From a virus, in the IMG/VR virus record IMGVR_UViG_3300035703_000060, positions 1 to 64,000 of that record: a stretch of 64,000 nucleotides of DNA; one strand, 5' to 3'. Each line of letters begins with the position of its first letter. Position 1 is the first letter of the stretch. Of the stretch, positions 31,607-58,919 are shown piece after piece. The notes under the pieces were generated by a model that worked only from the letters and a program-made list of their open reading frames with translations, was not told where the DNA came from and ran no database searches. Made by a program: the position numbers and the translations under genes.

Positions 31607-33550
31607 ATGGGTTGGTCGGAAAAATATAAAAAATCTATTGATTGCGACAATCCCAAAGGATTTTCACAAAGATCTCATTGTCAAGGTCGTAGAAAAAAAT
31701 TGAAAGAGCAATTTAAATCATTTAAGACAGTTGAACAAATTGCAAAGAAGCATCGTCTTGATGTTTCTTTCATCCAAAGGCAACTTGATATGGGTGAACC
31801 AATTGAACATGAGCATACTAAAGATCATAAATTGGCCATGGAAATTGCTCTTCAACATTTGGATGAAATTCCAGATTATTATACTCGTTTGAAAAAGATG
31901 GAAGCATCTGCAAAAAAAGAACATAAAAAGTTCAAAGATGCTCCCGTTTCTGAAGGTACATTACATCATTGGTATCAAGGTTCTCGCTCAAAGGGGGGGA
32001 AACCAGGATGGGTTCAACCAGATGGGTCACCCTGTGCCAATGAACCAGGTGAAACTAAAACTCCAAAATGTTTTAGTAGTGCAAGATTAAGATCTCTCAA
32101 GAAAAAAGGTAAAAAAGGAATTTCACTTATCAGATCCGCAGTTAGACGTAAGAGACAAAAAGATAAAGGACAACAAGCAAAATCTGGGGCGGCAGCACCA
32201 ACTAATGTTCCAACATTTGCAAAGGGTAAAAAAGATCCTAACTATGTAAAGGCAGAACCAGGAATTAAAGAAGCAATGGAACTTAACGAAGCAAGAAAAG
32301 ACAAACCTGGAAAAGGTAGTGGAACTAAAGATGCTTGCTACCATAAAGTAAAGTCACGATATGATGTTTGGCCAAGTGCATATGCATCTGGAGCACTGGT
32401 TAAATGTCGTAGAGTTGGTGCTTCAAACTGGGGAAATAAATCAGAATCTTTAAACTATGATTGGGATACTCCCATTCGTGAAAGACCAGATAGATATTGC
32501 CCCAAATGCCAAAAACTAGAACTGAGGAGTGAGTGTAAATATGGTCCGAAATATTGGGATATGTTTTCATTACCTGCAGAATTAATTAGTTCAAAAAAAG
32601 ATTTTAATACAACTATGCCACACCCCGGAAATATGCCAGAGGGATACGATCACGAGTACTCAATGGCACGTTCTGAAATCTCTACAATTATTTCAGCAGC
32701 GAAAAGACTTCGTAAAAAAATGGCAAAAGGTGAGGGAAATGTTGAAGCATGGGTACAATCAAAAATTACCAAAGCAGCAGATTATTTAGATTCTGCCGCA
32801 GATTATGTTGATAGTGGTGAAATGAAGGAGCAAGTTGCAGATACTAATGCAATGTCCGACAAAAAACCATTTGATGTCGCAGTGAAAAAAATCATGGACA
32901 GGAAGGATAAAATGACTCCTAAACAGAGAATCATTGCTCTTAAACAAGCAGGAAAATTTCAAGGAGTTGATGAGCAAATGCTTCCACCAATCAATCCCGA
33001 AAAACATAAACAATTGCAAAAAACACAAAAACTTTATAATAAAGGTGCGAGTACAGATAATCCACATGAAAAAGAAATTTTCTTAAAAAGAACTGGACCA
33101 CAATTACCTTTAGCAAAAAGAGAAACTAAAACTCAAGTTGCACATTATGAACCAGAAGGTGAAGTAATTGATGAAAAGTGTTGGCCTGGATATAAAAAGA
33201 AAGGAATGAAAACAATGTTTGGAAAAAGATATCCAAACTGTGTTAAATCGGAAGAGTTCTCTAATTGGAGAGCGGATTTTGGATTATCAGAAGATTGGCA
33301 AAAAGTTAATCGCAAAGATAAGACTGATGGATTGAGCCAAGCAGCAGTTGATGCTTATCGTCGTGAAAATCCAGGATCAAAACTTCAAACTGCGGTAACT
33401 GAAAAGAAACCAAAAGGAAAAAGAGCAAAGCGTCGTGCTAACTTCTGTCGGCGTATGAAAGGCATGAAGTCTAAACTGACTTCTGCAAAGACTGCAAGAG
33501 ATCCAGATTCAAGAATTAATAAAGCACTCCGTCGTTGGAACTGTAACTAA
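31607..33550 (+). CDS. modular basic multi-domain protein, possible internal head polyprotein
   Basis: 647 aa, K/R-rich, a string of short modules; late-like TCTAAATA at 31574-31581. Confidence 0.7.
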   Translation: MGWSEKYKKSIDCDNPKGFSQRSHCQGRRKKLKEQFKSFKTVEQIAKKHRLDVSFIQRQLDMGEPIEHEHTKDHKLAMEIALQHLDEIPDYYTRLKKMEASAKKEHKKFKDAPVSEGTLHHWYQGSRSKGGKPGWVQPDGSPCANEPGETKTPKCFSSARLRSLKKKGKKGISLIRSAVRRKRQKDKGQQAKSGAAAPTNVPTFAKGKKDPNYVKAEPGIKEAMELNEARKDKPGKGSGTKDACYHKVKSRYDVWPSAYASGALVKCRRVGASNWGNKSESLNYDWDTPIRERPDRYCPKCQKLELRSECKYGPKYWDMFSLPAELISSKKDFNTTMPHPGNMPEGYDHEYSMARSEISTIISAAKRLRKKMAKGEGNVEAWVQSKITKAADYLDSAADYVDSGEMKEQVADTNAMSDKKPFDVAVKKIMDRKDKMTPKQRIIALKQAGKFQGVDEQMLPPINPEKHKQLQKTQKLYNKGASTDNPHEKEIFLKRTGPQLPLAKRETKTQVAHYEPEGEVIDEKCWPGYKKKGMKTMFGKRYPNCVKSEEFSNWRADFGLSEDWQKVNRKDKTDGLSQAAVDAYRRENPGSKLQTAVTEKKPKGKRAKRRANFCRRMKGMKSKLTSAKTARDPDSRINKALRRWNCN

Positions 33551-33868: not shown

Positions 33869-35455
33869 ATGGCACAATGGAACAAGTCTACACAAGATTA
33901 TCTAAATCAAGAAAGAACACTTCACGAAGTTTATCTTCGTGCTGATGAGTATGGAAATATTCTAAATGAAAGTGCTTGTGCAAAATCTGCTTTTGGTGAG
34001 AATATTGCTATTCAATTAACACCAAAAGTTCAGGGTGATGCTGTCTATGGACTAGATCCGAGAGAGTTTGAGAGATTTACTTTTAGTTCTAGTGGAATTG
34101 CTACAAATGGTAATTCTAGATTTAGAGTTGGTGCTGGAACAGATGCTAATTCTTATGGTGTTATTAGAAGTACAAACTTTTTAAGATATCGTCCTGGACA
34201 AGGCGCGGTATGTAGATTTACTGCGGCATATTCTTCCAACCCAGTAGGATTTACTCAAAGAGCAGGTTTATTCAATCAAGAACAAGCAATTCAAATTGGA
34301 TATGCCTCCACCAATGGAAAGTTTGGTGTTCTTCGTGCGAATGGTGGTAAAGCACATATTCAAATTTTTACTTTCAGTGCGTTAGCAGACGGAAATGTAA
34401 CAGTTACTCTTAATGGAACTGTTTTTACTGCGGTAACTTTAAATGCAGGGTCTGTTGCCGGAAATATTGCTCTGCTTGTACAAGGATTAGTAAGTCAATC
34501 AGCATTTACTGCTCGTTATGTGGCTGAATATGATGAAACCAGAATAAAGTTTTTAGCAACATCTCTTGGTCCACAAAATGGGACATTTAATGCAACTAGC
34601 ACCACAACAATAACGTTTACAAACACAACAAGTCAAAGTGGCGTAGCACAAACAGAGTATTGGACATTCCAAGAAGATTTTAATTTAGATAAACTTGATG
34701 GCACTGGATACTCTGGTGTTACTTTGAATCCATCAAAACTAAATGTATATCAAATTAACTTCCGTTGGTTGGGTGCCGGTGAAATTCGTTATGCAATTGA
34801 AAATCCTCATAATGGAGATATGATGTTCTTCCATCACGAACATTATACAAATAAATATGAGTTTCCACATCTAGATAATCCATCATTGAAGATTGGATAC
34901 GTAGCAGCAAACTTGGGATCTCCTACAAGTGGTGTTGTAACTTGTACTGGTTCTTCATTCCTTGGAGCTGTTGAAGGAATTGTTGAAAGGACAAGACTTC
35001 CTTATTCTATAACTGCGACCAGAACTGACTCAATGAATACTCCTGGTTCTTTATATCATCTTGTTTCTCTCAAAAATAAACTTGTTTATCAGAATAAAAT
35101 CAATACAAGAGATCTTATTGTTTCAAGACTTACTGGATCAGTAAATACTACCGGTAGTCCCGCAGTCATTTACTTATATTGGAATCCAACAATTACAAAC
35201 TATCTAAGATGGACAACTCAGAGTGATTTTAACGCATCTCTTTATGCAACCCAAGATAGTACAGGATTGTTTATATTAGGAGCACAATCAATACCACCTA
35301 TTGCCGCTTTTCATGTTTCTAATGGAGACACTATTGATGTTAATTTAATTGATATGGGCATTCATATTCCACCAAATAGTTTCTTAACCGCAGTAATTTC
35401 ATCCACAAGCAATATGACTGCTGCCAATGCTTCGTTCGTTTATGTTGAAGATTAA
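33869..35455 (+). CDS. putative virion structural protein
   Basis: 528 aa, rich in G/S/T beta-strand sequence; RYRPGQG and FRWLGAGEIR motifs; lies in the late gene cluster. Confidence 0.6.
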   Translation: MAQWNKSTQDYLNQERTLHEVYLRADEYGNILNESACAKSAFGENIAIQLTPKVQGDAVYGLDPREFERFTFSSSGIATNGNSRFRVGAGTDANSYGVIRSTNFLRYRPGQGAVCRFTAAYSSNPVGFTQRAGLFNQEQAIQIGYASTNGKFGVLRANGGKAHIQIFTFSALADGNVTVTLNGTVFTAVTLNAGSVAGNIALLVQGLVSQSAFTARYVAEYDETRIKFLATSLGPQNGTFNATSTTTITFTNTTSQSGVAQTEYWTFQEDFNLDKLDGTGYSGVTLNPSKLNVYQINFRWLGAGEIRYAIENPHNGDMMFFHHEHYTNKYEFPHLDNPSLKIGYVAANLGSPTSGVVTCTGSSFLGAVEGIVERTRLPYSITATRTDSMNTPGSLYHLVSLKNKLVYQNKINTRDLIVSRLTGSVNTTGSPAVIYLYWNPTITNYLRWTTQSDFNASLYATQDSTGLFILGAQSIPPIAAFHVSNGDTIDVNLIDMGIHIPPNSFLTAVISSTSNMTAANASFVYVED

Positions 35456-42212: not shown

Positions 42213-42863
42213 ATGAAACTCATCACAGAAGAAGTATCACAAGTAAAATTTATCACCGAAGGAAAAGGTTCTCAGAAAAAACTGTATATTGAAGGAGTTT
42301 TTCTTCAAGGTGATATTTGTAATCGCAATGGAAGAATGTATCCAATGGAGACACTCTCCCGCGAGGTAAAAAGATATACAGAATCTTTTATTAACAAGGG
42401 TCGTGCTCTTGGAGAACTTGGACACCCAGATGGTCCAACAGTAAACCTTGATCGAGTTTCTCATAAAATTGTTTCTCTTACTCAAGAGGGATCTAATTTT
42501 AGAGGTAAAGCACAACTTCTCGAAACTCCAATGGGCAAGATTGCAAAATCTCTTATTGATGAAGGAGTTTGTCTTGGTGTTTCTTCTCGTGGTGTTGGTT
42601 CACTCAAAATGACCAATGAAGGTCACAAAATTGTTGGTGAAGATTTCATGCTTGCTACTGCAGCTGATATCGTTGCCGATCCTTCTGCTCCTGATGCTTT
42701 TGTTCAGGGAATTATGGAAGGTAAAGAGTGGGTATGGGAAGGCGGAATTCTTCGTGAGCAACTTGCAGAATCTACAAAACGTAGAATTAATACTTTAGTT
42801 GATGAAAGAATACTTCAAGAATATAAAGTTGAGTTGTTCCAAGAGTTTCTCTCAAATCTTTAA
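42213..42863 (+). CDS. gp21: prohead core protease gp21
   Basis: LYIEGVFLQ...NRNGR.YP, ALGELGHP, GVSSRG.GS, DIVADPSAPDA. Confidence 0.97.
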   Translation: MKLITEEVSQVKFITEGKGSQKKLYIEGVFLQGDICNRNGRMYPMETLSREVKRYTESFINKGRALGELGHPDGPTVNLDRVSHKIVSLTQEGSNFRGKAQLLETPMGKIAKSLIDEGVCLGVSSRGVGSLKMTNEGHKIVGEDFMLATAADIVADPSAPDAFVQGIMEGKEWVWEGGILREQLAESTKRRINTLVDERILQEYKVELFQEFLSNL

Positions 42864-42865
42864 AT

Positions 42866-42873
42866 TATAAATA
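42866..42873 (+). promoter_or_regulatory. T4-type late promoter
   Basis: Exact TATAAATA upstream of gp22. Confidence 0.8.
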
Positions 42874-42905
42874 AATATAGATTAAATACAAAGATCTAAA
42901 AACAA

Positions 42906-44030
42906 ATGTCCGTTGGTAGAAATTTACAAGAAATGGAAAACGTAGTAACCAAAGGTGCTGCACCTGCCGAACCAATGCACAACACCTCACAGAATGCATC
43001 TGGAGTTGCTACTCCAGGTCAAACTGGTGCTTGGGAAGATTTAGGTGGACCTACTCCAGAAAATTATCGTCCAGATGATGATTCTGCAAAACTCAAGGAT
43101 CCATCAGCGACTCTTGCCCAAGTAAGAGATGTTGTAAATGCTAAGGCAGCAGCAGTTAAAGAAGAAGTTGTTGACGAAGAGGAAGACGTAATTTCTGAAG
43201 AGGAAGAAGTTGAAGAAGAAGACTTAGAGGCAGAAATAGAAGAAGAAGAAGCAGCAGAAGAAAGCGAAGAAGAAGTAGTTGCAGAAGAAGAGTTTGATAT
43301 CGAAGAAGATGTCAATGCTCTCCTCGCTGGTGAAGAGCTTTCCGAGGAATTCCAAGAGAAAGCACGCACCATCTTCGAAGCTGCTATCCGTTCAAAAGTT
43401 TCTGAAATCAAAGAAGAACTTCAAGAGACTTATGAAAATGCACTTATTGAAGAAGTTCAGTTCATTAAAGAAGAATTAACTGAGCGTTTAGACGCTTATC
43501 TTGAGTACGTTGCCGATGAGTGGATTCAAGAGAATGCACTCGCCATCGAGCACGGTCTCAAGACTGAGATGACCGAATCATTCCTTCAAGGAATGAGAGG
43601 TCTTTTTGAAGATCATTATGTTTCAATCCCTGAAGATAGATATGATGTAATCGAGAGCATGGTAGATAAACTTGATGAAATGGAAGAAAAACTCAACGAG
43701 CAAATCGAAAGAAACGTTGCTCTGAACAGAAGATTAGCCGAGTCGGTTGCCGATGTAATCTTTGCAGATGTCGCTGAGGGTCTCGCACTTTCTCAGAAGG
43801 ACAAACTCGCTTCTCTTGCAGAAAATGTTGAGTTTGATGGTGAAGAGAACTATCGTGAGAAACTGGTAACTCTGAGGGAATCATATTTCCCAACCAGAAG
43901 TGCTGGTACTCAAAGAGATGACTCTGAAACTTTATCTGAGTCTGTTTCCTATGATACAAATTTAACTGAATCTGTATCACCTTCTATGGAAGCATATCTT
44001 CAGACTCTTAGCAGAGTCGCTAAAAAGTGA
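42906..44030 (+). CDS. gp22: prohead core scaffold protein gp22
   Basis: LSEEFQEKARTIFEAA, YLEYVADEW..EN, acidic coiled coil between gp21 and gp23. Confidence 0.95.
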   Translation: MSVGRNLQEMENVVTKGAAPAEPMHNTSQNASGVATPGQTGAWEDLGGPTPENYRPDDDSAKLKDPSATLAQVRDVVNAKAAAVKEEVVDEEEDVISEEEEVEEEDLEAEIEEEEAAEESEEEVVAEEEFDIEEDVNALLAGEELSEEFQEKARTIFEAAIRSKVSEIKEELQETYENALIEEVQFIKEELTERLDAYLEYVADEWIQENALAIEHGLKTEMTESFLQGMRGLFEDHYVSIPEDRYDVIESMVDKLDEMEEKLNEQIERNVALNRRLAESVADVIFADVAEGLALSQKDKLASLAENVEFDGEENYREKLVTLRESYFPTRSAGTQRDDSETLSESVSYDTNLTESVSPSMEAYLQTLSRVAKK

Positions 44031-44080
44031 TTTTTAAATTATAACGATCAAACTAAATTTTTTTAAAAGAGGTAAAACAA

Positions 44081-45490
44081 ATGCAAATGTTCAACGCAGA
44101 ATATTTGCAGGAGAAGTGGGCACCTATCCTGGACTACTCAGGACTCGATGAAATCAAAGATTCACATCGTAGAGCTGTAACCGCTATCCTGCTCGAAAAC
44201 CAAGAAAAGGAACTTCGTGAAGCACGCGAATTCCTTTATGAAGCTCCAACCAACTTCACTGCATCTGGTGCAAGTGGTGCTGGTTTTGGTGGTAGTGCTC
44301 AAGGTTTTAGTGCTGGTCCTACCGCAGGTTTCGACCCTGTTCTGATCAGCCTCATTCGCCGTTCAATGCCCAACCTGATCGCTTATGATCTGTGCGGCGT
44401 TCAACCAATGAATGGTCCTACTGGACTCATCTTCGCAATGCGTTCCCGCTACAATAACCAAAGCGGAACTGAAGCATTCTTCAACGAAGTAGATTCTGCA
44501 TTCTCTGGTCAAGATTCTGGATTTAATGTTACTAGTGGATTCACCGCTGGTAGCGTTGGTATGGGTACTACCACACAGCAAGGTACTAATCCTGGTATCC
44601 TTGATGGTACTGCTCCACAAACTGGTGACGCAACTACCTACAACGTAGGTCAGGGTATGCGTACAGACTCTGCAGAAGACCTTGGACAAGGTTCTGGTGA
44701 TCACTTCAACCAGATGGCATTCTCAATCGAGAAGGTCACTGTAACTGCAAAGTCACGCGCACTGAAGGCTGAGTATTCATTAGAACTCGCTCAAGACCTC
44801 AAGGCAATTCATGGTCTGAATGCAGAAGCTGAGTTGGCAAACATTCTGTCAACTGAGATTCTTGCTGAAATCAACCGTGAAATCATTCGTACCATCTACA
44901 ACGTCGCTAAGCCTGGTGCTCAAGCAAACGTTGCAACCTCTGGTACTTTTGACCTTGACGTTGATTCAAACGGTCGTTGGTCTGTTGAGAAGTTCAAGGG
45001 TCTTATCTTCCAAATCGAGCGCGACGCTAACGCGATTGCACAAACAACTCGTAGAGGAAAGGGTAACATGATCCTCTGCTCTGCTGACGTTGCTTCGGCA
45101 CTCACCATGGCAGGTGTTCTTGACTACACCCCAGCACTCAACGCTAACCTGAACGTTGATGACACTGGTAACACCTTCGCAGGTGTTCTCCAAGGTAAGT
45201 ATCGCGTATATATCGATCCTTATGCTGCTAACGTATCTGCTAACCAGTTCTACGTTGTAGGTTATAAGGGTTCTTCACCTTATGATGCAGGTCTCTTCTA
45301 CTGCCCATATGTTCCTCTCCAAATGGTTCGTGCCGTTGGTGAGAACACCTTCCAGCCCAAGATTGGCTTTAAGACCCGTTACGGTCTTGTTGCCAACCCA
45401 TTTGCTGAAGGTGCAACTGTTGGTCAAGGTGCTCTTAACCGTAACGCTAACGCTTACTACAGAAGAGTCAAAGTGACCAATTTAATGTGA
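44081..45490 (+). CDS. gp23: major capsid protein gp23
   Basis: KWAPILD, GVQPMNGPTGLIFAMR, AKSRALKAEYSLELAQDLKAIHG, FQPKIGFKTRYG; strong codon bias. Confidence 0.99.
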   Translation: MQMFNAEYLQEKWAPILDYSGLDEIKDSHRRAVTAILLENQEKELREAREFLYEAPTNFTASGASGAGFGGSAQGFSAGPTAGFDPVLISLIRRSMPNLIAYDLCGVQPMNGPTGLIFAMRSRYNNQSGTEAFFNEVDSAFSGQDSGFNVTSGFTAGSVGMGTTTQQGTNPGILDGTAPQTGDATTYNVGQGMRTDSAEDLGQGSGDHFNQMAFSIEKVTVTAKSRALKAEYSLELAQDLKAIHGLNAEAELANILSTEILAEINREIIRTIYNVAKPGAQANVATSGTFDLDVDSNGRWSVEKFKGLIFQIERDANAIAQTTRRGKGNMILCSADVASALTMAGVLDYTPALNANLNVDDTGNTFAGVLQGKYRVYIDPYAANVSANQFYVVGYKGSSPYDAGLFYCPYVPLQMVRAVGENTFQPKIGFKTRYGLVANPFAEGATVGQGALNRNANAYYRRVKVTNLM

Positions 45491-45559: not shown

Positions 45560-45973
45560 ATGAAGACTTTTAAGCAGTTTATATCTGAAGCATTACCATT
45601 TGGTGCTGTAGTATCAACTAGTTCTTATGGTCCAGGATTATATGGAAATCCTACTGCATCTGGTGCAAAATTAACTCCATCAACTAGAGGGGTTGCACAT
45701 AAAACTTTACCTCTTGGAAGTCAGGTAAGAATTACAGATCCCAAAACAAAAAGATCAATAACTGCTCCAGTCGTTGATAGAGGACCTTATCATGGAAATC
45801 GCCAATACGACTTAACTACAAAAACAACACAAGATCTTGGATATAAAGACTATAAACAATTTGGTGTTAGAGATCTTGACGTAACACCTATAAAACCAAA
45901 ACCAAAAGTTCCAGATTTGGGTGTAAAGGTTGATATGAGTGTTCCAAAAATTGTTCCAACTAAGAAAAGATAA
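45560..45973 (+). CDS. RlpA-like double-psi beta-barrel lytic transglycosylase with capsid-targeting-like N-terminus
   Basis: SYGPGLYGNPTASG...VAHKTLPLGSQVRIT...VVDRGPY..NRQYDL. N-terminus MKTFKQFISE. TCTAAATA at 45540-45547. Confidence 0.85.
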   Translation: MKTFKQFISEALPFGAVVSTSSYGPGLYGNPTASGAKLTPSTRGVAHKTLPLGSQVRITDPKTKRSITAPVVDRGPYHGNRQYDLTTKTTQDLGYKDYKQFGVRDLDVTPIKPKPKVPDLGVKVDMSVPKIVPTKKR

Positions 45974-50524: not shown

Positions 50525-50794
50525 ATGTTTCTTCTCACTCTCAAAGACAAAAAAAATGATGGTGCATATGCTGTTCAAGATCAGTATGGGCACAAAGTTT
50601 TATTTCTTTTTGAGGAGGAAGATGATGCGACAAGGTATGCTATGATGCTTGAAGATCAAGAAGATCATGAAATGGATGTTGTCGAAGTTGATGCTGAACT
50701 CGCAATAAAAACTTGTAAATTATATAATTACAAATACTCTATAATTACTCCAAATGATATTGTAATTCCTCCAAAAAATGTTGTTATTTCATAA
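50525..50794 (+). CDS. conserved hypothetical cyanophage protein
   Basis: GAYAV...LFLFEEEDDATRYAMMLE...IVIPP; between gp47 and gp46. Confidence 0.7.
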   Translation: MFLLTLKDKKNDGAYAVQDQYGHKVLFLFEEEDDATRYAMMLEDQEDHEMDVVEVDAELAIKTCKLYNYKYSIITPNDIVIPPKNVVIS

Positions 50795-52490
50795 GATTAA
50801 ATATAAAAACTTTTTAAGTTCTGGTAATCAATTTACAGAAGTTGATTTTAGAAAAAGTAGTACAAATTTAATAATTGGTACAAATGGTGCAGGTAAATCC
50901 ACAATGTTGGATGCACTTACTTTTGTTCTCTTTAATAAAAGTTTTAGGGGAATCACAAAACCTCAACTTGTCAATAGTACCAATGAAAAAGATTGTGTAG
51001 TTGAGATAGAATTTTCAGTTAATAGTAAAAATTATCTTGTTCGACGAGGGATCAAACCTAATATCTTTGACATTGAAGTTAATGGAGTTGCTCTCCATAA
51101 AGAAGCAGATGATCGTGCTAATCAAAGAATATTAGAAGAAAATATTTTAAAGGTAAATTACAAATCTTTTACTCAAATTGTAATTTTGGGTAGTAGTAAC
51201 TTTGTTCCTTTTATGCAACTTACATCTTCAAATCGTCGTGAGGTGATTGAAGATCTTTTAGACATTCGTATTTTTTCTGCTATGAATGCCTTAGTTAAAG
51301 ATAAGATTAAAGAGCAAAAGGAAGAAATTAAATCTTTAAGTTTGAAAAAAGATAATCTTAAAGATAAAATTAAAATGCAAGAGAGTTTTATTGAAGAACT
51401 TGAAAATCGTGGTAATGCCAATATAAATGCCAACAAAGAAAAGATTACCAAGTTAGATGAAGAAATTGGCGTTTATATGTCTGAGAACGCATCAACCGAA
51501 GAAGAAATTTCTAAGTTTATTAAAGAGCAAGAAGAAGTTATTGGTGCTGGAGATAAGTTAGTAAAGCTTAACAATCTAAAAGGTAAGATCTCTCAGAAAG
51601 TATTAACAGTTACTAAAGAACATAAGTTTTTTAGTGAAAATACGGTATGCCCTACTTGTACTCAAACCATAGAAGAAGAATTTCGATTAAATAGAATTGC
51701 AGATGCTCAAAATAAAGCAAAGGAACTTAAAGATGGTTATGAAGAACTTGAACAAACAATAAAGTTCGAACAAGAGAGAGAGCGTCAATTCAATGCACTT
51801 TCTAAGGAGATTACAAAATTAACGCATGGCATTTCTCAAAACAATACTCGGATTTCACTCAATCAAAGACAAATCCGAGATCTTGAATCTGAAATTCAAA
51901 CAATTGCCGAGAACCTTGCAAACCGAAATACTGAACATGAGAAACTAGAAGAATTTAAAGAAAATCTCCAAAATACAATTGAATATCTCTCAGATAAAAA
52001 ACAACAAATCGTTCATTACGATTTTGCCTATTCCTTACTTAAGGATGATGGTGTAAAAACGAAGATCATTAAGAAGTATCTTCCGTTCATAAATCAGCAG
52101 GTGAATCGTTATCTTCAGATGATGGATTTTTATATTAACTTCCATTTAGATGAAGAATTTAATGAAACAATTAAATCTCCAATTCATGAAAATTTTTCAT
52201 ATTCTTCTTTTTCAGAAGGTGAAAAAATGAGAGTAGATTTATCTCTACTTTTTACATGGAGAGAAGTTGCTAAACTTAAAAATTCAGTGAATACAAACCT
52301 GCTGATTATGGATGAGGTATTTGATTCATCTTTGGATGGATTTGGAACAGATGAGTTTCTTAAGATTATTCGTTATGTAATTAAAGACGCAAATATTTTT
52401 GTTATTTCACATAAGACTGGTCTTGAGGACAAATTTGAAAGTGTGTTAAAATTTGATAAAGTTAAAGGATTTAGTAGGTTAGTTGTATGA
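50778..52490 (+). CDS. gp46: recombination endonuclease subunit gp46 (Rad50/SbcC-like)
   Basis: GTNGAGKST, CPTC zinc hook, FSEGEKMR, LLIMDEVFDSSLD. Confidence 0.97.
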   Translation: MLLFHKIKYKNFLSSGNQFTEVDFRKSSTNLIIGTNGAGKSTMLDALTFVLFNKSFRGITKPQLVNSTNEKDCVVEIEFSVNSKNYLVRRGIKPNIFDIEVNGVALHKEADDRANQRILEENILKVNYKSFTQIVILGSSNFVPFMQLTSSNRREVIEDLLDIRIFSAMNALVKDKIKEQKEEIKSLSLKKDNLKDKIKMQESFIEELENRGNANINANKEKITKLDEEIGVYMSENASTEEEISKFIKEQEEVIGAGDKLVKLNNLKGKISQKVLTVTKEHKFFSENTVCPTCTQTIEEEFRLNRIADAQNKAKELKDGYEELEQTIKFEQERERQFNALSKEITKLTHGISQNNTRISLNQRQIRDLESEIQTIAENLANRNTEHEKLEEFKENLQNTIEYLSDKKQQIVHYDFAYSLLKDDGVKTKIIKKYLPFINQQVNRYLQMMDFYINFHLDEEFNETIKSPIHENFSYSSFSEGEKMRVDLSLLFTWREVAKLKNSVNTNLLIMDEVFDSSLDGFGTDEFLKIIRYVIKDANIFVISHKTGLEDKFESVLKFDKVKGFSRLVV

Positions 52491-53275
52491 TTGGAATTAT
52501 TGGAAATGGATTTGTAGGTAATGCAGTTTACCAAAATTTAAGAGACAAAGTATCTTGTAAAGTTTTTGATGTTGACAAGAATAAATCATTCAATACTCTG
52601 GATGAAGTATTAAAGCAATCATTTATTTTTGTTTGTTTGCCAACTCCAATGAAATCTACTGGTGAATGTGATCTTTCGATTTTGGATAATTTTTTTAAAA
52701 ATCTTCCAGAAATAGTCGATGGTATTTTTATTATTAAATCAACTGTTCCTATTGGAACAACTAAAAGATATGCTAAAAAGTATAAGGTGATTCATAATCC
52801 AGAATTTTTGACTGCTAGAAATGCTGTTGAAGACTTTAGAAATTCTGAAAGGAATGTTGTTGGTGGAAGTAAAAATCTGTGCCAACAGTTTGTTAATTTT
52901 TTTATAACTATTTTTCCAAATATTCCAAGTGTAATTACTACATCTGATGAAAGTGAAGCAATTAAATATTTTGCAAATAGTTTTCTTGCTTGCAAAGTTG
53001 CATACTTTAATAAAATGTATGATTTGTGTGAAGTAGTTGGTATGAACTATAATGTAGTTTGTGATGGTGTAACTTCTGATAGTCGAATCGGTAAATCTCA
53101 TACACAAGTCCCTGGTATTGACAATGACCGTGGATTTGGTGGCACTTGTTTTCCGAAAGATTTAAATTCTCTTATAAATCAGATGGAAGCGCACAGCATC
53201 GACGCTGATATGCTAAAATCTGTTTGGTCTTACAATCAACAAGTTCGCACGGTCATTGATTGGTCCGTAACCTAA
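52487..53275 (+). CDS. UDP-glucose/GDP-mannose 6-dehydrogenase family protein (short form)
   Basis: IGIIGNGFVG Rossmann motif, KSTVPIGTT, HNPEFL, EAIKYFAN, GFGGTCFPKD with catalytic Cys. Confidence 0.88.
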   Translation: MIGIIGNGFVGNAVYQNLRDKVSCKVFDVDKNKSFNTLDEVLKQSFIFVCLPTPMKSTGECDLSILDNFFKNLPEIVDGIFIIKSTVPIGTTKRYAKKYKVIHNPEFLTARNAVEDFRNSERNVVGGSKNLCQQFVNFFITIFPNIPSVITTSDESEAIKYFANSFLACKVAYFNKMYDLCEVVGMNYNVVCDGVTSDSRIGKSHTQVPGIDNDRGFGGTCFPKDLNSLINQMEAHSIDADMLKSVWSYNQQVRTVIDWSVT

Positions 53276-53276
53276 A

Positions 53277-53414
53277 ATGAACACTCCAAACTGGCAACAC
53301 CACTCTAAGAAGGAGCAGAAGCGGAAACTGAAACCGCAAGCACTCCGACAAGCAAAGGCACGACGCCAAGCACTCAAGAAGCGTCTCCAACAAGGGGGCG
53401 TTTCTTTTTTATAA
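53277..53414 (+). CDS. small basic protein (45 aa, not in ORF track)
   Basis: MNTPNWQHHSKKEQKRKLKPQALRQAKARRQALKKRLQQGGVSFL, starting 1 nt after the upstream stop. Confidence 0.65.
   Translation: MNTPNWQHHSKKEQKRKLKPQALRQAKARRQALKKRLQQGGVSFL
53376..53410 (+). terminator. rho-independent terminator
   Basis: AAGAAGCGTCTCC / GGGGGCGTTTCTT stem followed by a T tract. Confidence 0.7.
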
Positions 53415-53417
53415 ATA
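53410..53417 (+). promoter_or_regulatory. T4-type late promoter
   Basis: Exact TATAAATA right after the terminator. Confidence 0.8.
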
Positions 53418-53437
53418 TCTAAAAAGTCTTTATAAAA

Positions 53438-54175
53438 ATGAGAGATAAAGAATTTATAGATTTAAGTAATGCTTATAATCAAATTTGTGAGCAAAGTTAT
53501 GGGATTGATGCTTCAAAGCATGGTGGTCCAGATAAACTCTTACAAAAAATGGTTGATGAAAAGAAGAGAAGAGGTGATAAAGATGGTGGGGGAGAAGTAG
53601 TTCAAAGTGGACTTCAAAAAGCAAACTATGAACCAGAAGGTGAATTGGTACTAGAAAAGGACGAAACCGAAGAAGGTATTACTGGACTTCCAATTCCAAA
53701 AAAGAGAATGAGTTCTGCAAAAAGACATGAATTTGAAAAGAAAAGAAGAGCAGAAAGAAAAAAGCGTGGAGATGATAGAGTTGGAGATACTTTCTCTCAA
53801 CATAGAATGACTGGTAGTAGAGGGCGTGGATCTGAATATCAAAATATTCGCACAGTTCGTGAAGAAGTTCTTGTCGATTATCTTCTTGGAGAGGGTTTTG
53901 CTTCTGATGAAAAGTCAGCACAAGCAATCGCTGGTGTAATGAGTGAAGAGTGGAAAGATAATATTCTTGGAGAGGAAAAAAAAGAATTTCCAAGTGATAA
54001 AGTAAGGAAACAATCTGCTAAACATGAAAAAAATTATCTTACCAGACCAAATTCTTATTCTGGGCAAGCATCTAAATCAAAATCTAGAAAAATGAAAGCA
54101 ATTGCTTCTACTGTGGAAGTTGGTGATGACCCAAGAAATACCATGCATGGGCAGGATTTAAGAAAAATTAAATAG
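53438..54175 (+). CDS. charged modular hypothetical protein, possible internal head protein
   Basis: YEPEGE and YL..EG(F/Y)A.....A.AI...MSEEW...I modules shared with other ORFs in the window. Confidence 0.7.
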   Translation: MRDKEFIDLSNAYNQICEQSYGIDASKHGGPDKLLQKMVDEKKRRGDKDGGGEVVQSGLQKANYEPEGELVLEKDETEEGITGLPIPKKRMSSAKRHEFEKKRRAERKKRGDDRVGDTFSQHRMTGSRGRGSEYQNIRTVREEVLVDYLLGEGFASDEKSAQAIAGVMSEEWKDNILGEEKKEFPSDKVRKQSAKHEKNYLTRPNSYSGQASKSKSRKMKAIASTVEVGDDPRNTMHGQDLRKIK

Positions 54176-54176
54176 A

Positions 54177-54233
54177 GACCACTTCCCAAACTGGCACACT
54201 AGAGGGTTTCATCGCCCTCTTTTTTTGTATGAT
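54177..54233 (+). promoter_or_regulatory. composite element: imperfect palindrome, terminator hairpin and -10 box
   Basis: GACCACTTCCCAAACTGGCAC, AGAGGG/CCCTCT plus T tract, TGTATGAT. Confidence 0.65.
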
Positions 54234-54254
54234 ACGCTCATACGCAACAAATCC

Positions 54255-56402
54255 ATGACGGTTCGCCACGAAATCAAATCTCAACTCGCCAAGCTGCTTG
54301 CCACGGAAGATCTGGTGGTTGAGCACAAGAAGGTAGAGACTGCCCAGTTCAACGTTCATACCCGTGTGCTGACCCTGCCTATGTGGGAGAAGGCAAGCAA
54401 CACTGTGTATGACCTGCTGGTGGGGCACGAAGTCGGACACGCTCTTTACACCCCAGATGAGGATTGGACAGTAAACGTAAAGGTTCCTCCACAGTTTGTC
54501 AATATTGTGGAAGATGCTCGTATTGAAAAAATGATGAAGCGTCGTTATCCTGGTCTTGCAAAGACTTTCTTCAATGGATATAAAGAACTCACTGATGATG
54601 ATTTCTTTCAAATCAAAGACGACAATTTGGAAACTTATAACCTTGCTGACCGTGCAAACCTGTGGTTCAAGATTGGTAACTATGTTGATGTACCGATTGA
54701 ACGTGGTGAAGAGACTGAAATTATCAATCTAATTGCTGATAGTGAAACTTTTGCAGATGTTTTGATTGCTGCAGAAGAACTCTATAAGTATTGTAAACAA
54801 TCCCAGAAAGAGGAAACTAATATTCAAATTGATAGTTTGGAATCTCAATCATCTGGGGCAAGTCAGCAACCCTCTTCTGATTTTACTGATCAGCAAGAAG
54901 GTGACAATGATCAAGAAAAAACAGACACTTCTAAACTTCCTAACACTAGCGAAACTGAACAGGAAAAGCAACCTAATAATTCACCTCAAGGTGGTCAAGA
55001 GTCTGAACCAGAAGTTAAGACGATGGAGTCTCTTGAAGAGGCACTAAAAGATCTTGTTAATGATGATGGATATGAGAATGTCTATCTGGAATTGCCTCAA
55101 CTAAATCTAGATGATGTGATTGTTCCCAATTCTGAGATTCACAACAAGTGTAAAGAATATTGGGATGCTTTTATTGGAGATCGTGACTGGAAATATACTG
55201 ATGTATTTGGTAAAGTTGATAAAGAATATCTAGAGTTTAAGCGTTCTGCCCAGAAAGAAGTCAACTATCTGGTCAAAGAGTTTGAATGTCGTAAGGCAGC
55301 AGATTCTTATGCTCGCGCTTCAACTGCACGTACTGGTGTTCTAGACTGCTCTAAACTTCACACATACAAATATAATGAAGATATTTTCCGCAAGGTAACA
55401 ACTCTTGCTGATGGTAAGAATCACGGTTTAGTCTTTGTTCTTGACTGGTCTGGTTCTATGTGTGATGTTATGTTGGATACTGTTAAACAACTATACAATC
55501 TAATTTGGTTCTGTAAAAAAGTTGCAATTCCTTTTGAGGTTTATGCTTTTACAACCGATTATCCTCTTGTCAAGTATGATGAAGCAGGTAAGGCAAATCT
55601 TCGTCAACTTTCCTACAAGAAAAAAGATGGTCTTATTCAGGTTGGTGAATGGTTTTCAATGATGAATCTTCTTACCAGTAAAGTAAACTCTAAAACTCTT
55701 GAAGAGCAAATGAAGAACATCTTCCGTCTTGCCACTTCTTTCCGTTACAATTCATATACTCAATATAATGCTCCTGTTGGAATGAGTCTCTCGGGTACTC
55801 CTTTAAATGAGGCATTGATCTCACTTCATCAAATTCTTCCCAAGTTTCAACGTGAAAATAAACTTCAAAAAGTCCAGTGTGTTGTTCTAACTGATGGTGA
55901 GGCTTGTATGCTTAAATATCACCGCGAAGTTCAACGTCGTTGGGAAGAAGATCCTTACATGGGCACTGCTCATATTGGACCTAATGCTTTTCTTCGTGAT
56001 CGTAAAACTGGCAATACTTATTCTTGTAATTCTGAGTGGCATGAGTTTACTGATATTCTTCTTCGAAATTTGCGGGATAGGTTTGTCGATATGAACTTTA
56101 TTGGTATTCGTGTTTTGGAAGGTCGTGATGCTGGTAGTTTTATTCGTCGCTATTGTGGGTTTTATGGTGATGAGTATGATAAGGTAATGAATTCTTGGAA
56201 AAAAGAAAAGGCATTTACAATTAAGAAATCTGGATATCATTCTTACTTTGGTATTTCTGCTAATGCTCTTGCTCAGGATTCTGAGTTCTCTGTTTCTGAA
56301 GATGCTACCAAGTCTCAAATCAAATCTGCTTTTGCTAAAAGTTTGAAATCCAAAAAAATGAACAAGCGTATTCTTGGTGAGTTTGTGGAACTTGTTGCTT
56401 GA
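54255..56402 (+). CDS. HExxH metallopeptidase-like plus C-terminal VWA (CobT-like) protein
   Basis: HEVGH..NIVEDARIE N-domain, acidic linker, LDWSGS MIDAS, GTPL, LTDGE. Start taken at ATG 54255, downstream of the -10 box. Confidence 0.85.
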   Translation: MTVRHEIKSQLAKLLATEDLVVEHKKVETAQFNVHTRVLTLPMWEKASNTVYDLLVGHEVGHALYTPDEDWTVNVKVPPQFVNIVEDARIEKMMKRRYPGLAKTFFNGYKELTDDDFFQIKDDNLETYNLADRANLWFKIGNYVDVPIERGEETEIINLIADSETFADVLIAAEELYKYCKQSQKEETNIQIDSLESQSSGASQQPSSDFTDQQEGDNDQEKTDTSKLPNTSETEQEKQPNNSPQGGQESEPEVKTMESLEEALKDLVNDDGYENVYLELPQLNLDDVIVPNSEIHNKCKEYWDAFIGDRDWKYTDVFGKVDKEYLEFKRSAQKEVNYLVKEFECRKAADSYARASTARTGVLDCSKLHTYKYNEDIFRKVTTLADGKNHGLVFVLDWSGSMCDVMLDTVKQLYNLIWFCKKVAIPFEVYAFTTDYPLVKYDEAGKANLRQLSYKKKDGLIQVGEWFSMMNLLTSKVNSKTLEEQMKNIFRLATSFRYNSYTQYNAPVGMSLSGTPLNEALISLHQILPKFQRENKLQKVQCVVLTDGEACMLKYHREVQRRWEEDPYMGTAHIGPNAFLRDRKTGNTYSCNSEWHEFTDILLRNLRDRFVDMNFIGIRVLEGRDAGSFIRRYCGFYGDEYDKVMNSWKKEKAFTIKKSGYHSYFGISANALAQDSEFSVSEDATKSQIKSAFAKSLKSKKMNKRILGEFVELVA

Positions 56403-56432
56403 TAAATATTTCTATAAGACTTTTTAAAGACA

Positions 56433-56618
56433 ATGGGCAGATTCACAGATCTTTTTTCTCAAACTGAACAATCAGTTGTAGTTGAACAAATTCACGTTGT
56501 TGAAGAAGTGCATGAAGAACCCCAAGTTCCTTCTGCACAAGAGACTGTAGTTAATGCTGAACTACCAAAAACAAATTTAAAGGAAGTGTCAACTACTTTT
56601 AAAAAGAGTAGAAAATAA
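56433..56618 (+). CDS. small hypothetical protein
   Basis: 61-aa ORF after a GATAAATA late-like box (56401-56408). Confidence 0.6.
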   Translation: MGRFTDLFSQTEQSVVVEQIHVVEEVHEEPQVPSAQETVVNAELPKTNLKEVSTTFKKSRK

Positions 56619-56650
56619 TAAATAAAGGTATAGAAAAATACTTAAAAAAA

Positions 56651-57631
56651 ATGAATTCACAACAAGTAGCGGATTTAAAACTCCTTTATGAGGCAGTTTA
56701 TGATGAAAATTTAAGAGAAAAGGCAGAAGAGTATAATAGTGCTGTATGTGATGAAGACATTATTGAAGTTGCAACTGAATATTTTTATACTTATGGATTG
56801 AATGAAGATGGCATTGACATCTTAATTGAAAAAGTTGGTCTTGATAATTTTGTTGAGTTTGTTTATGATCTCTCTGAAGATCTTGTAGTTCTTACTGAAG
56901 CAAGAGCGGCAAAGAAAAGAACTGGTGGTAAGTCTTATGAAGAAGTGAAAGCAGAAATTGATGCAAGAGAGGCTAAAAAAGCGGCAAAGAAAAAAGCAAC
57001 AAAATCTGCTGAAGAGAGAAAAGAAACTGAAAAGAAAGAACCAGAATCTAAAGGTCCAGATACTGAAGCAAAAGCAGAACAACCTAAATCAAAGAAACCA
57101 ATTAGAGATGCTATTGCAAGACAAATTCTTGCTGGTATGAAGCGTCACCGTGAAGCAACTCAGACTGCTGGGAATCTTGCTAGAGAAACTGGAAAGACTT
57201 TAGGTAAACTTGCTTCAGTAACTCATGAAGCAGGTCGCCGTGCAGGTGAGCATGTTAAAAAGCATGGATTAAAGTCTCTTGCAAATGAAGAGTTTGATAA
57301 TTTTGATATTATTTTTGAATACTTAGTTGCTGAAGGATATGCTGATACAAATGAAGCAGCACTCGCTATTATGGCAAATATGAGTGAAGAGTGGAGACAA
57401 AGTATTGTCGAGGGTTCTACTGGTTTTTCTGTTCCAAGTAGAATTGATGATTTTAATAACAGAAGAGATGAGTTAAAAAATCGCTACAAGCAAGATGTTG
57501 GTCCAAGAATTCCTGGACCTTCTGGTGGTGGTCAATATGGAGAACCACCAGCACCTAAAGCGATGGGTTTGAGACTTGCTAGAGGATCCTCTAGTTCAAA
57601 AAGAGGCGTAGAATCAAAGAACAACGCTTGA
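56651..57631 (+). CDS. charged modular hypothetical protein, possible internal head protein
   Basis: AATAAATA at 56617-56624; K/E-rich tract; YLVAEGYADTNEAALAIMANMSEEWRQSIVE module. Confidence 0.7.
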   Translation: MNSQQVADLKLLYEAVYDENLREKAEEYNSAVCDEDIIEVATEYFYTYGLNEDGIDILIEKVGLDNFVEFVYDLSEDLVVLTEARAAKKRTGGKSYEEVKAEIDAREAKKAAKKKATKSAEERKETEKKEPESKGPDTEAKAEQPKSKKPIRDAIARQILAGMKRHREATQTAGNLARETGKTLGKLASVTHEAGRRAGEHVKKHGLKSLANEEFDNFDIIFEYLVAEGYADTNEAALAIMANMSEEWRQSIVEGSTGFSVPSRIDDFNNRRDELKNRYKQDVGPRIPGPSGGGQYGEPPAPKAMGLRLARGSSSSKRGVESKNNA

Positions 57632-57632
57632 A

Positions 57633-57689
57633 GACAATTTCCAAACTGTCCACTCAGGTGCCCACAAGGCACCTTTTTTCTTGTATAAT
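57633..57689 (+). promoter_or_regulatory. composite element: imperfect palindrome, terminator hairpin and -10 box
   Basis: GACAATTT-CC-AAACTGTC, AGGTGCC/GGCACCT plus T tract, TGTATAAT. Confidence 0.7.
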
Positions 57690-57723
57690 ATGAGAGTTCA
57701 AATGAAACACACCTAATTACATC

Positions 57724-58863
57724 ATGTCTCGCAAACCTTCAGTGAACGACGAACAACTCATTTCCGAACTTAAGTCTCTGTATGGTACAGAGTTTTCTGC
57801 TGGTGATGTTCGCGGTTATTGTGCATCCAAAGGTATTTCTTATCCTACCGTGACTCGTTATCTTGAACCTTTTAAAACAGATCGTGGTCGGTGGAATCTG
57901 GAAGTGACTCAACAACGTGTTGATGAGATTGAGCGTACTTTCCAAGCACCTGCTGTGATTCCTCCCACTGAACAAAATCTCATCCCCGACAAAGATGATA
58001 CCTTCGTCAAGTTTGGTAACTTTGGTGATATTAAAAAAATTATTCAGTCCCGTATCTTTTACCCTGCGTTCATTACGGGTCTTTCGGGTAATGGTAAAAC
58101 GTTCAGTGTTGAGCAAGCGTGTGCTCAACTCAAGCGTGAATTGATTCGTGTAAACATCACGATTGAAACTGATGAAGATGACCTTATTGGCGGTTTCCGT
58201 CTTGTTGATGGTGCCACTGTTTGGCACAACGGTCCTGTTATTGAAGCACTCCAACGTGGAGCGATCCTGCTCCTTGACGAGATTGACCTTGCCTCCAACA
58301 AAATCCTTTGTCTACAATCCGTGCTAGAAGGTAAGGGAGTCTTTCTGAAAAAGATTGGTACTTTTGTAAAACCTGCCCCTGGTTTCAATGTCATCGCCAC
58401 CGCCAACACTAAGGGTAAGGGTTCTGATGACGGCCGCTTTATCGGCACTAACGTGCTCAATGAAGCGTTTCTGGAGCGTTTTCCTGTGACCTTTGAGCAG
58501 TCCTATCCTGCCCCTGCTACGGAGCAGAAGATCCTGGAAGGCATTGCTCTGGACCTTGGCGTGGAAGACCGCGACTTCTGTAAGCGTCTTTGCGATTGGT
58601 CGGACGTGATCCGTAAAACCTTCTACGATGGTGGTATTGAGGAAATCATTAGCACCCGTCGCTTGGTTCATATCATTCGTGCCTATGCTATCTTTAAAGA
58701 CAAAGCAAAGGCAATTCAAGTTTGTGTAAATCGCTTTGACGATGAAACTAAACAGGCATTCTTGGAACTCTATGATAAAATTGATGTGGACTTTCAACTT
58801 CCCAAAGAAGAAAAACCTGAACTTGAATTGACCATTGGGGGAGGTCACGAAGTTTCTTTCTAA
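57724..58863 (+). CDS. cobS: MoxR/CobS-like AAA+ ATPase
   Basis: GLSGNGKT Walker A, LLLDEID Walker B, TANTKG, NEAFLERF, STRRLV. Confidence 0.92.
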   Translation: MSRKPSVNDEQLISELKSLYGTEFSAGDVRGYCASKGISYPTVTRYLEPFKTDRGRWNLEVTQQRVDEIERTFQAPAVIPPTEQNLIPDKDDTFVKFGNFGDIKKIIQSRIFYPAFITGLSGNGKTFSVEQACAQLKRELIRVNITIETDEDDLIGGFRLVDGATVWHNGPVIEALQRGAILLLDEIDLASNKILCLQSVLEGKGVFLKKIGTFVKPAPGFNVIATANTKGKGSDDGRFIGTNVLNEAFLERFPVTFEQSYPAPATEQKILEGIALDLGVEDRDFCKRLCDWSDVIRKTFYDGGIEEIISTRRLVHIIRAYAIFKDKAKAIQVCVNRFDDETKQAFLELYDKIDVDFQLPKEEKPELELTIGGGHEVSF

Positions 58864-58875
58864 TAAAACTTCTTT

Positions 58876-58919
58876 ACTGAAAAGTGTTATTCGTATAAAT
58901 AATAATAGCACTTTTCAGT
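58876..58919 (+). promoter_or_regulatory. 16-bp hairpin with late promoter TATAAATA in its loop
   Basis: ACTGAAAAGTGTTATT (58876-58891) / AATAGCACTTTTCAGT (58904-58919); TATAAATA at 58894-58901. Confidence 0.8.

What the first reader, a model, noticed from the sequence alone, without database searches (positions are those of the whole stretch)
53410..57679. Self-contained late cassettes in the early region share exact DNA micro-modules with each other and with the polyprotein
Seen: ORFs 53438 and 56651 each have their own late promoter and terminator, a similar N-terminal helix (DLSNAYNQICE / DLKLLYEAVYDE) and the module YL..EG(F/Y)A.....A.AI...MSEEW...I, with the identical 16-mer ATGAGTGAAGAGTGGA (53939-53954 and 57380-57395). 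ORF 53438 also shares the identical 18-mer TATGAACCAGAAGGTGAA (YEPEGE; 53627-53644) with the polyprotein (33146-33163). Each shared block is followed closely by an x-x-E site and then unrelated basic sequence. Inference: conserved linker/targeting modules act both as gp21 processing signals and as recombination hinges for shuffling cargo peptides, forming a dispersed, diversifying internal-protein family.
Basis: partly seen in the sequence, partly recalled or inferred. Interest (0 to 1): 0.72.

Follow-up and report, generated by a model that had tools for sequence, protein, structure and literature searches.

The report
Shuffled late-gene cassettes in a cyanophage
Two small late genes of a T4-like cyanophage belong to a very large, undescribed family of proteins built from a few conserved acidic pieces and freely swapped basic pieces; they are good but unproven candidates for proteins packed inside the phage head.

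Summary
Both exact repeats, both promoter/terminator pairs, the shared N-terminal helix and the shared ~40-aa module are at the stated places.

The window is a freshwater T4-like cyanomyovirus (nearest isolate S-SRM01). ORF 53438 and ORF 56651 are two members of a huge family: the module alone is found in 4189 protein clusters. Members share an N-terminal signature (L-x-E-A-Y-x-x-V-Y), a confidently folded acidic three-helix module ending I-V-E, a YEPEGE linker, and unrelated basic segments between and after these. In related contigs 90% of members carry NATAAATA about 28 nt upstream and 67% a terminator.

Mosaic junctions are real and recent. Phages with 95-98% identical DNA up to the S-I-V-E codons carry unrelated DNA straight after them.

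The exact 16-mer and 18-mer are by-products of conserved peptides plus codon bias. Synonymous sites are not over-conserved.

The internal-head-protein and gp21-processing reading is plausible. The leader resembles the T4 capsid-targeting sequence and carries the same L-Y-E-A as the predicted gp23 cut site. It is untested, because no virion data exist.

First readers of this scan noted the same family in several other genomes. Verdict: partly supported; new variant of a known kind.

The parts
53277..53414 (+). Conserved 45-aa very basic micro-gene at the left border of the variable slot; its 3' end overlaps the hairpin
   Evidence: 85-92% nt identity in most related loci; open in 27 of 27 loci; third codon positions vary 0.22 against 0.09 and 0.10
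53376..53406 (+). Terminator-like hairpin ahead of the ORF A promoter
53410..53417 (+). TATAAATA late-promoter box of ORF A, 28 nt before the ATG
   Evidence: 90% of family ORFs in 80 loci have NATAAATA 21-37 nt upstream against 17% of other ORFs
53438..54175 (+). ORF A, 245 aa, family member: signature, YEPEGE linker, basic segment, module, basic tail
53438..53488 (+). N-terminal family signature of ORF A (L9-S-N11-A-Y13..I16-C17), with Asn where 87% of members have Glu
53612..53656 (+). Linker L-Q-K-A-N-Y-E-P-E-G-E-L-V-L-E, holding the 18-mer 53627-53644. Most relatives start as separate proteins at residue 72-74, just after it
53864..53974 (+). Acidic three-helix module of ORF A (residues 143-179), holding the 16-mer 53939-53954. 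Relatives stop aligning at residue 177
54186..54233 (+). Composite right border: CCAAACTGGC box, hairpin 54201-54220, T run, TGTATGAT extended -10 box for the CobT-like gene
   Evidence: the box follows 63% of family ORFs against 6% of others
54255..56402 (+). CobT-like HExxH + vWA gene (phrog_459 'peptidase'), the conserved core gene between the two variable slots
56617..56624 (+). AATAAATA late-promoter box of ORF B, 34 nt before the ATG
56651..57631 (+). ORF B, 326 aa, family member
56651..56701 (+). N-terminal signature of ORF B (D8-L-K-L-L-Y-E14-A15-V-Y17); L-Y-E-A equals the predicted gp23 maturation site
56756..56905 (+). Second conserved acidic helical module (E-Y-F-Y-x-x-G-L-N-E-D-G-I-D-I-L type), also present in P-SSM7 gene 106
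57287..57412 (+). Acidic three-helix module of ORF B (residues 213-254) ending S-I-V-E, holding the 16-mer 57380-57395; recombination junction at its 3' end
   Evidence: pLDDT 92.5 when folded alone
57413..57628 (+). Variable basic tail of ORF B (pI 10.4); the same tail follows a different module subtype in L049
57641..57689 (+). Composite right border: CCAAACTGTC box, hairpin 57656-57674, T run, TGTATAAT box for the CobS/MoxR gene
33131..33175 (+). Same linker (T-Q-V-A-H-Y-E-P-E-G-E-V-I-D-E) inside the 647-aa mosaic ORF 31607-33550, holding the 18-mer 33146-33163

Best explanation
Shown: ORF A and ORF B are two members of a very large cyanomyovirus family of autonomous late transcription units. 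Each gene has a T4-type late box about 28 nt upstream. Downstream lies a terminator that belongs to a PeSL-like terminator/early-promoter element. The proteins are mosaics. They combine an N-terminal amphipathic signature, acidic conserved modules (a ~40-aa three-helix bundle ending I-V-E and a YEPEGE linker ending [LIV]-x-E) and unrelated, mostly disordered basic segments. The modules are similar enough at DNA level (about 85-90%) for homologous recombination. As a result, near-identical phages carry unrelated DNA straight after the module. The identical 16-mer and 18-mer are by-products of conserved peptides and strong codon bias. Inferred: these are the cyanophage counterpart of T-even internal proteins. 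In this reading the N-terminal signature targets them to the prohead core. The gp21-type protease then cuts at the conserved L-x-E|A and I-V-E sites, freeing basic cargo from the acidic modules inside the head.
For: Family size and architecture: (4189 clusters). Late cassette form: (90% against 17% promoter; 67% against 7% terminator). Borders: and PMC4122927. Mosaic junctions; 40 unrelated tail clusters among 109 relatives, with 74 changes on the N-domain tree (minimum 39, shuffles 86.4 +/- 2.0); DNA pairs 95-98% identical up to S-I-V-E and unrelated after it; L049 shares the window's tail from S-I-V-E on. Codon tests. For the internal-protein reading: a Peptidase_S77 gene is in the window; the predicted gp23 site is F-L-Y-E|A and ORF B has L-L-Y-E|A; the signature has L 90%, E 87%, A 92%, with L at residue 9 in 139 of 168 members, which compares with the 10-residue T4 capsid-targeting sequence cut at L/I-x-E (PMC9026906); I-x-E ends 82% of modules; tails are basic in 99%.
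Against: No virion proteome or N-terminal data exist for any member. The S-SRM01 paper has none and the S-CREM1 table text is silent. The signature stays conserved beyond the proposed cut (Y 98%, V/I 94%, Y/H 88%), so it is more than a cleavage site. ORF A has Asn at P1, and many slot-X relatives lack the signature altogether. [LI]-x-E is a short motif in Glu-rich proteins. No PHROG or Pfam internal-protein family matches. ORF B as a whole is acidic (pI 5.6).
Confidence: 0.45

Rival explanations
1. The proteins are late but not packaged and not processed. In this reading they are nucleic-acid-binding, assembly or host-modulating proteins. The acidic three-helix module would be a LisH-like dimerisation or docking domain, and the basic disordered segments would bind DNA or RNA. 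The mosaic structure reflects diversifying selection on the basic parts.
For: LisH (PF08513) is the commonest Pfam hit among members: 5 of 70 (best E 3.5e-6) and 7 of 44 isolated modules. The module is a confident autonomous fold and is conserved at 75-90% in otherwise unrelated proteins, as expected for a binding domain. The signature is an amphipathic helix conserved past the putative cut. Some late promoters in the window serve non-structural genes such as uvsW.
Against: The LisH hits are weak, and ORF A and ORF B themselves give none. Structure searches give only generic three-helix matches. This reading does not explain the fixed N-terminal position of L-x-E-A or the near-invariant I-x-E at module ends.
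Confidence: 0.35
2. The cassettes work with the flanking CobT-like HExxH/vWA protein and the CobS/MoxR ATPase, for example as substrates or adaptors. That would explain why they sit on either side of the CobT-like gene.
For: Most of the 80 related loci hold members in the slots gp46-[X]-CobT-[Y]-CobS. The CobT-like protein has an HExxH motif and is named 'peptidase'.
Against: Members also sit before uvsW, after replication genes and next to structural genes. They have late promoters, whereas CobT and CobS follow sigma-70-like -10 boxes. Some loci have CobT-CobS with no member between them (L045, L048, L050).
Confidence: 0.08
3. The shared words are chance or codon-bias coincidences between unrelated genes, and there is no family.
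For: Exact 15-16-mers between unrelated genes do occur in the window. Identical codons for M-S-E-E-W have probability 0.13 given the peptide.
Against: BLASTP E 7e-8. Thousands of homologues share the module, the signature and the linker.
Confidence: 0.02

Closest known systems
T4 internal proteins IPI/IPII/IPIII with their capsid-targeting sequence, cut by gp21 (PMC9026906)
   Same: Late genes in variable loci. A short conserved N-terminal leader with a hydrophobic-x-Glu site at about residue 10, ahead of unrelated and often basic cargo. Several paralogues per genome. The phage encodes a gp21-type protease.
   Different: No sequence similarity and no PHROG or Pfam match. The signature stays conserved after the proposed cut. 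There are additional internal acidic modules and linkers. Cargo is swapped inside genes. Presence in the virion and cleavage have not been shown.
PeSL elements (promoter-early stem-loops) of T4-type phages (PMC2839356, PMC4122927)
   Same: A composite terminator hairpin plus early promoter bordering variable ORFs between conserved core genes; proposed to mediate indels by recombination.
   Different: Here the cassette's own 5' signal is a late promoter. The 3' element carries an extra conserved CCAAACTG box. A second layer of shuffling acts inside the coding sequence at protein-module borders.
Conserved-motif-mediated swapping in T-even tail-fibre adhesins (gp37/gp38; PMC3157838 listed, details from my own knowledge)
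   Same: Short conserved motifs delimit hypervariable segments and serve as homologous recombination sites, giving mosaic proteins.
   Different: Different proteins and function. Here the conserved pieces are folded acidic modules and the variable pieces are disordered basic segments.
Protease-processed paralogous inner-body/ejection proteins of phiKZ-like phages (S/A-x-E sites; PMC9026906)
   Same: Families of head-internal proteins cut after Glu at short motifs, with several sites per propeptide.
   Different: Unrelated sequences. Processing is demonstrated there by mass spectrometry and only predicted here.
LisH motif (Pfam PF08513)
   Same: The pattern h-x-x-I-L-x-Y-L-x-x-x-G-Y-x-x-T-x-x-A in helices 1-2 resembles LisH, and the Pfam hits recur.
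   Different: The hits are weak and reach only a minority of members. The module has a third helix (M-S-E-E-W..I-V-E). Dimerisation was not tested.

Membership tests
T4-type internal proteins (CTS-bearing) | N-terminal leader of about 10 residues ending in L/I-x-E | tested here: inconclusive
   ORF B has L12-Y-E14|A15. ORF A has L9-S-N11-A12 (no Glu). Family consensus is L9 (90%)-x-E11 (87%)-A12 (92%). The resemblance is one of pattern only.
T4-type internal proteins (CTS-bearing) | Phage encodes a gp21-type prohead protease | tested here: met
   Window 42213-42863 matches Peptidase_S77 at E 7.8e-37.
T4-type internal proteins (CTS-bearing) | Protein present in the mature head and cut by the protease | not testable with these tools
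   No virion proteome of a phage carrying a member was found; Dreher 2011 is not held.
T4-type internal proteins (CTS-bearing) | Sequence match to a described internal-protein family | tested here: not met
   Only unknown-function PHROGs match (3708, 3477, 22522). There is no Pfam or NCBIfam family.
PeSL-type regulatory cassettes | Stem-loop terminator directly followed by an early (sigma-70-like) promoter | tested here: met
   Hairpins 54201-54220 and 57656-57674 are followed by a T run and TGTATGAT or TGTATAAT. Promoter activity is inferred from the consensus.
PeSL-type regulatory cassettes | Repeated, conserved copies that border variable ORFs between core genes | tested here: met
   CCAAACTGNC occurs 3 times in the window, all at cassette borders (expected 0.27). 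The element follows 63% of family ORFs against 6% of others. Core genes are conserved and the slots are variable.
LisH motif (PF08513) | Match to the Pfam model above its threshold | tested here: inconclusive
   5 of 70 full-length members (best E 3.5e-6) and 7 of 44 modules (best E 0.0019) match. ORF A and ORF B do not. No LisH structure is among the top structural matches.

The most novel reading that the evidence does not exclude
A combinatorial 'acidic chaperone / basic cargo' system. Conserved acidic modules would neutralise adjoining basic, protamine-like peptides in cis until the prohead protease cuts at the invariant L-x-E and I-V-E sites inside the capsid. The same modules, being near-identical in DNA across paralogues and co-infecting phages, would serve as portable homology. 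That homology lets cargo be reshuffled on the time scale of strain divergence. The outcome would be a diversity-generating cargo system for injected or DNA-condensing peptides in cyanomyoviruses.
Probability: 0.2. Interest if true: 0.8.

Novelty: new variant of a known kind. Interest (0 to 1): 0.6.

Why it matters
Internal head proteins of T4-like cyanophages have not been identified. In T4 such proteins include anti-restriction factors injected with the DNA. This family gives thousands of concrete candidates with a recognisable leader, predicted cut sites and cultured carriers (S-SRM01, S-CRM01), so the question can be tested directly by virion N-terminomics. Whatever the function, it is a clear natural case of very recent intragenic module exchange at a folded conserved domain. 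In pairs with at least 95% identical N-terminal domains, only 13% share a tail. This bears on how phages generate protein diversity and on how metagenomic 'hypothetical proteins' should be clustered.

Tried and rejected
Genomic context and DNA came from the search for related loci instead.
- Pfam, PHROGs and NCBIfam give no informative family for ORF A or ORF B. The weak Senescence, TolA and FlhF hits fall on the Lys/Glu-rich stretch.
- A profile of the module against PDB sequences gave nothing below E 0.4.
- Foldseek against PDB gave nothing below E 2.
- VIA-align wide gave best Z 5.7, generic three-helix arrangements. Four ANTAR-domain proteins are among the top 12, but there is no Pfam ANTAR hit, so this was not pursued.
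- The ESM Atlas returned only unnamed viral clusters; its own model has pLDDT 0.49.
- The full-length AF2 model of ORF B is disordered or low-confidence apart from the module. It gives no support for the N-terminal helix packing on the module.
- Rfam: no credible RNA family in 52400-58900.
- No RNA holder is listed among public runs.
- Joints reported by read laying at 85% likeness have short sides and were not used. The 54198-to-57672 joint probably reflects the two similar border elements.
- Literature: no paper mentions DUF6321; there is no proteomics in the S-SRM01 paper; the text of the S-CREM1 supplement does not say whether ORF219 is in the virion.
- No further canonical N-terminal signature was found in the 74.5-kb contig.
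- A first pair-identity count made on treekit's stored alignment looked wrong. It was redone on a fresh alignment.
Full report
**What the window is.** The window is part of a 74.5-kb contig of a T4-like cyanomyovirus.
- The finding's region matches Synechococcus phage S-SRM01 best (77% nt), and the stretch occurs in freshwater metagenomes of eight studies.
- Gene order here, all on the + strand:
  - gp46 (50778-52490)
  - a UDP-glucose-dehydrogenase-like gene (52487-53275)
  - a 45-aa ORF (53277-53414)
  - ORF A (53438-54175)
  - a CobT-like HExxH/vWA gene (54255-56402)
  - a 61-aa ORF (56433-56618)
  - ORF B (56651-57631)
  - CobS/MoxR (57724-58863)
- gp21 (Peptidase_S77), gp22 and gp23 lie at 42213-45490.

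**Checking the observation.**
- Each exact repeat occurs exactly twice, in frame.
- ORF A and ORF B align only over a 35-aa stretch (40% identity, E 7e-8).
- TATAAATA lies 28 nt before ORF A and AATAAATA 34 nt before ORF B. Hairpins followed by T runs follow both genes.
- NATAAATA is strongly strand-biased (23 against 3). It sits 27-44 nt before 14 start codons, including gp18, gp20 and gp22, so it behaves as a T4-type late box in this phage.

**Are the DNA words special?** No.
- The window holds 37 direct-repeat families seeded by 14-mers, among them an unrelated exact 16-mer.
- Given the peptide M-S-E-E-W, identical codons have probability 0.13. Over the whole A/B module, 8 of 14 identical residues share a codon against 7.8 expected.
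- In the YEPEGE block all 10 identical residues share codons (P about 0.004), and within the 18-mer all six codons are the preferred ones. That case was picked because of its DNA identity, so the figure is inflated.
- Across 32 ORF B orthologues, synonymous identity in the module (0.69) equals that of the rest of the gene (0.67-0.70).
- So there is no selection on the DNA word itself.

**The family.**
- ORF B has 1998 relatives in its length band and ORF A has 246.
- A profile of the module finds 4189 clusters at 50% identity (2798 at E 1e-10 or better), many with two or three copies.
- No Pfam, PHROG or NCBIfam name applies, and cultured carriers annotate the genes as hypothetical.
- Members share four features:
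  1. An N-terminal signature, M-x3-[ED]-[ILFV]-x2-L-x-E-A-Y-x2-[VI]-[YH]. The Leu is at residue 9 in 139 of 168 distinct N-termini. ORF A has it with Asn for Glu, and ORF B has a shifted L-L-Y-E-A-V-Y form.
  2. An acidic module that folds alone as a three-helix bundle (pLDDT 92.5). It is the only confident part of ORF B. It ends in I-x-E in 82% of 371 instances.
  3. A linker, L-Q-x-A-x-Y-E-P-E-G-E-x-[LIV]-x-E. It is seen in 13 different contexts, including the 647-aa ORF 31607-33550, and is 18-fold enriched in the family.
  4. Basic, unrelated segments. Tails after the last module have pI above 9 in 99% of 103 cases, while the modules have pI about 4.

**Cassette form and position.**
- In 80 IMG/VR loci, 90% of family ORFs have NATAAATA 21-37 nt upstream against 17% of other ORFs. 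67% have a terminator within 90 nt against 7%.
- The 3' border is a conserved composite: a CCAAACTG box, a hairpin, a T run and TGnTATAAT. It follows 63% of members against 6% of other ORFs.
- This is the layout of PeSL elements of T4-type phages (PMC4122927).
- Most members lie in the slots gp46-[X]-CobT-[Y]-CobS. ORF A-type and ORF B-type proteins exchange slots and even fuse (L039; P0050).
- Others lie before uvsW, after replication genes or beside structural genes.
- 35 of 81 loci hold two or three members.

**Mosaic junctions.**
- Alignments of ORF B relatives stop at residues 214, 230 or 254-256.
- Alignments of ORF A relatives begin at 72-74 and stop at 177. These are the borders of the linker and the module.
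- Among 109 ORF B relatives there are 40 unrelated tail clusters. On a tree of the N-terminal domain they need 74 changes (minimum 39; shuffles 86.4 +/- 2.0).
- Of 388 pairs with at least 95% identical N-domains, only 13% share a tail cluster.
- At DNA level, 21 orthologues have 15 non-homologous tail clusters. Pairs that are 95-98% identical upstream have unrelated DNA downstream, so these are not frameshifts.
- In L009/L012 the switch falls straight after the S-I-V-E codons, and in L037/L038 after E-I-L-D-E.
- L049 carries the window's tail behind a different module subtype, with homology starting at S-I-V-E.
- In metagenomes the summed contig depth peaks on the module: 500, 1281 and 166 in three runs, against roughly 10-40 in the neighbouring bins.
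- The simplest mechanism is homologous recombination within the shared module DNA, which makes the visible switch fall at the module's edge (inference).

**Function.**
  - The predicted gp23 maturation site is F-L-Y-E|A, and ORF B begins ...L-L-Y-E|A.
  - The family leader places L-x-E-A at residues 9-12. In T4 the first 10 residues of IPIII suffice for capsid targeting, and gp21 cuts after L/I-x-E (PMC9026906).
  - The RlpA-like ORF 45560 starts M-K-T-F-K-Q-F-I-S-E, close (from memory) to the T4 leader.
- Points against:
  - The signature remains conserved after the cut.
  - ORF A lacks the Glu, and some members lack the leader.
  - The motif is short.
  - No proteomic data exist.
- A rival is a LisH-like docking or dimerisation module on late DNA-binding proteins.
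- I put the internal-protein reading at about 0.4 and the descriptive part at about 0.9.

**Prior notes.** First readers of this scan flagged the same family in at least four other genomes and the border element in this one. Those notes are unchecked and are not independent evidence.

Noticed in passing
window 53277-53414: A 45-aa, very basic ORF just after gp46 / the UGDH-like gene is conserved at 85-92% nt. It is open in 27 of 27 related loci and shows codon-like variation (third position 0.22 against 0.09 and 0.10). It is a real conserved micro-gene with no family match, and its C-terminus overlaps the terminator hairpin.
   Followed up: partly
window 53286, 54186, 57641: CCAAACTGNC occurs only three times in 64 kb, all on the + strand at cassette borders. 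In the first copy it encodes P-N-W of the micro-gene. In the other two it is non-coding, just ahead of the hairpins. This may be the trace of how the cassettes were inserted.
   Followed up: partly
window 54225-54255: The mechanical TTG start (54225) of the CobT-like gene lies inside its promoter/terminator element. All relatives align from the ATG at 54255. The protein has an HExxH motif plus a vWA MIDAS-like D-x-S-G-S motif.
   Followed up: partly
window 56401-56618: A 61-aa acidic ORF with its own GATAAATA box 32 nt upstream lies between CobT and ORF B. Its DNA is not conserved in most related loci.
   Followed up: no
window 44081-44330 and 45560-45600: gp23 has a likely maturation site F-L-Y-E|A-P-T about 40 residues before the conserved R-R-S-M-P-N-L-I-A block. 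The DPBB/RlpA-like ORF after gp23 begins M-K-T-F-K-Q-F-I-S-E|A, a T4-CTS-like leader.
   Followed up: partly
window 31607-33550; L006 2227-4125; L087 1-2043: The 647-aa ORF between gp16 and the likely large-terminase gene at 33869-35455 (identified by position only; no Pfam family matched it) is a chain of small conserved modules (DUF5661, DUF6321, a C-W-x-G-Y...P-N-C-V unit, the YEPEGE linker). P-SSM7 gene 106 and S-CREM1 ORF219 are similar chains that also hold modules of the ORF A/B family.
   Followed up: partly
L005 5755-5892 (P-SSM2 gene 152): A 45-aa ORF in the same CobT-CobS slot of P-SSM2 consists of little more than a signature-like N-terminus (...G-L-L-A-A-Y-A-K-V-H). It may be a remnant or a minimal member.
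   Followed up: no
window 52487-53275: The UDP-glucose/GDP-mannose-dehydrogenase-like gene is present in only some related loci (L012, L014, L033, L050, L051), so it is itself an indel after gp46.
   Followed up: no
window 44258-44273 and 45653-45668: An exact 16-mer is shared by gp23 and the RlpA-like gene, in frame, encoding T-A-S-G-A in both. It serves as a background example of short exact repeats.
   Followed up: no
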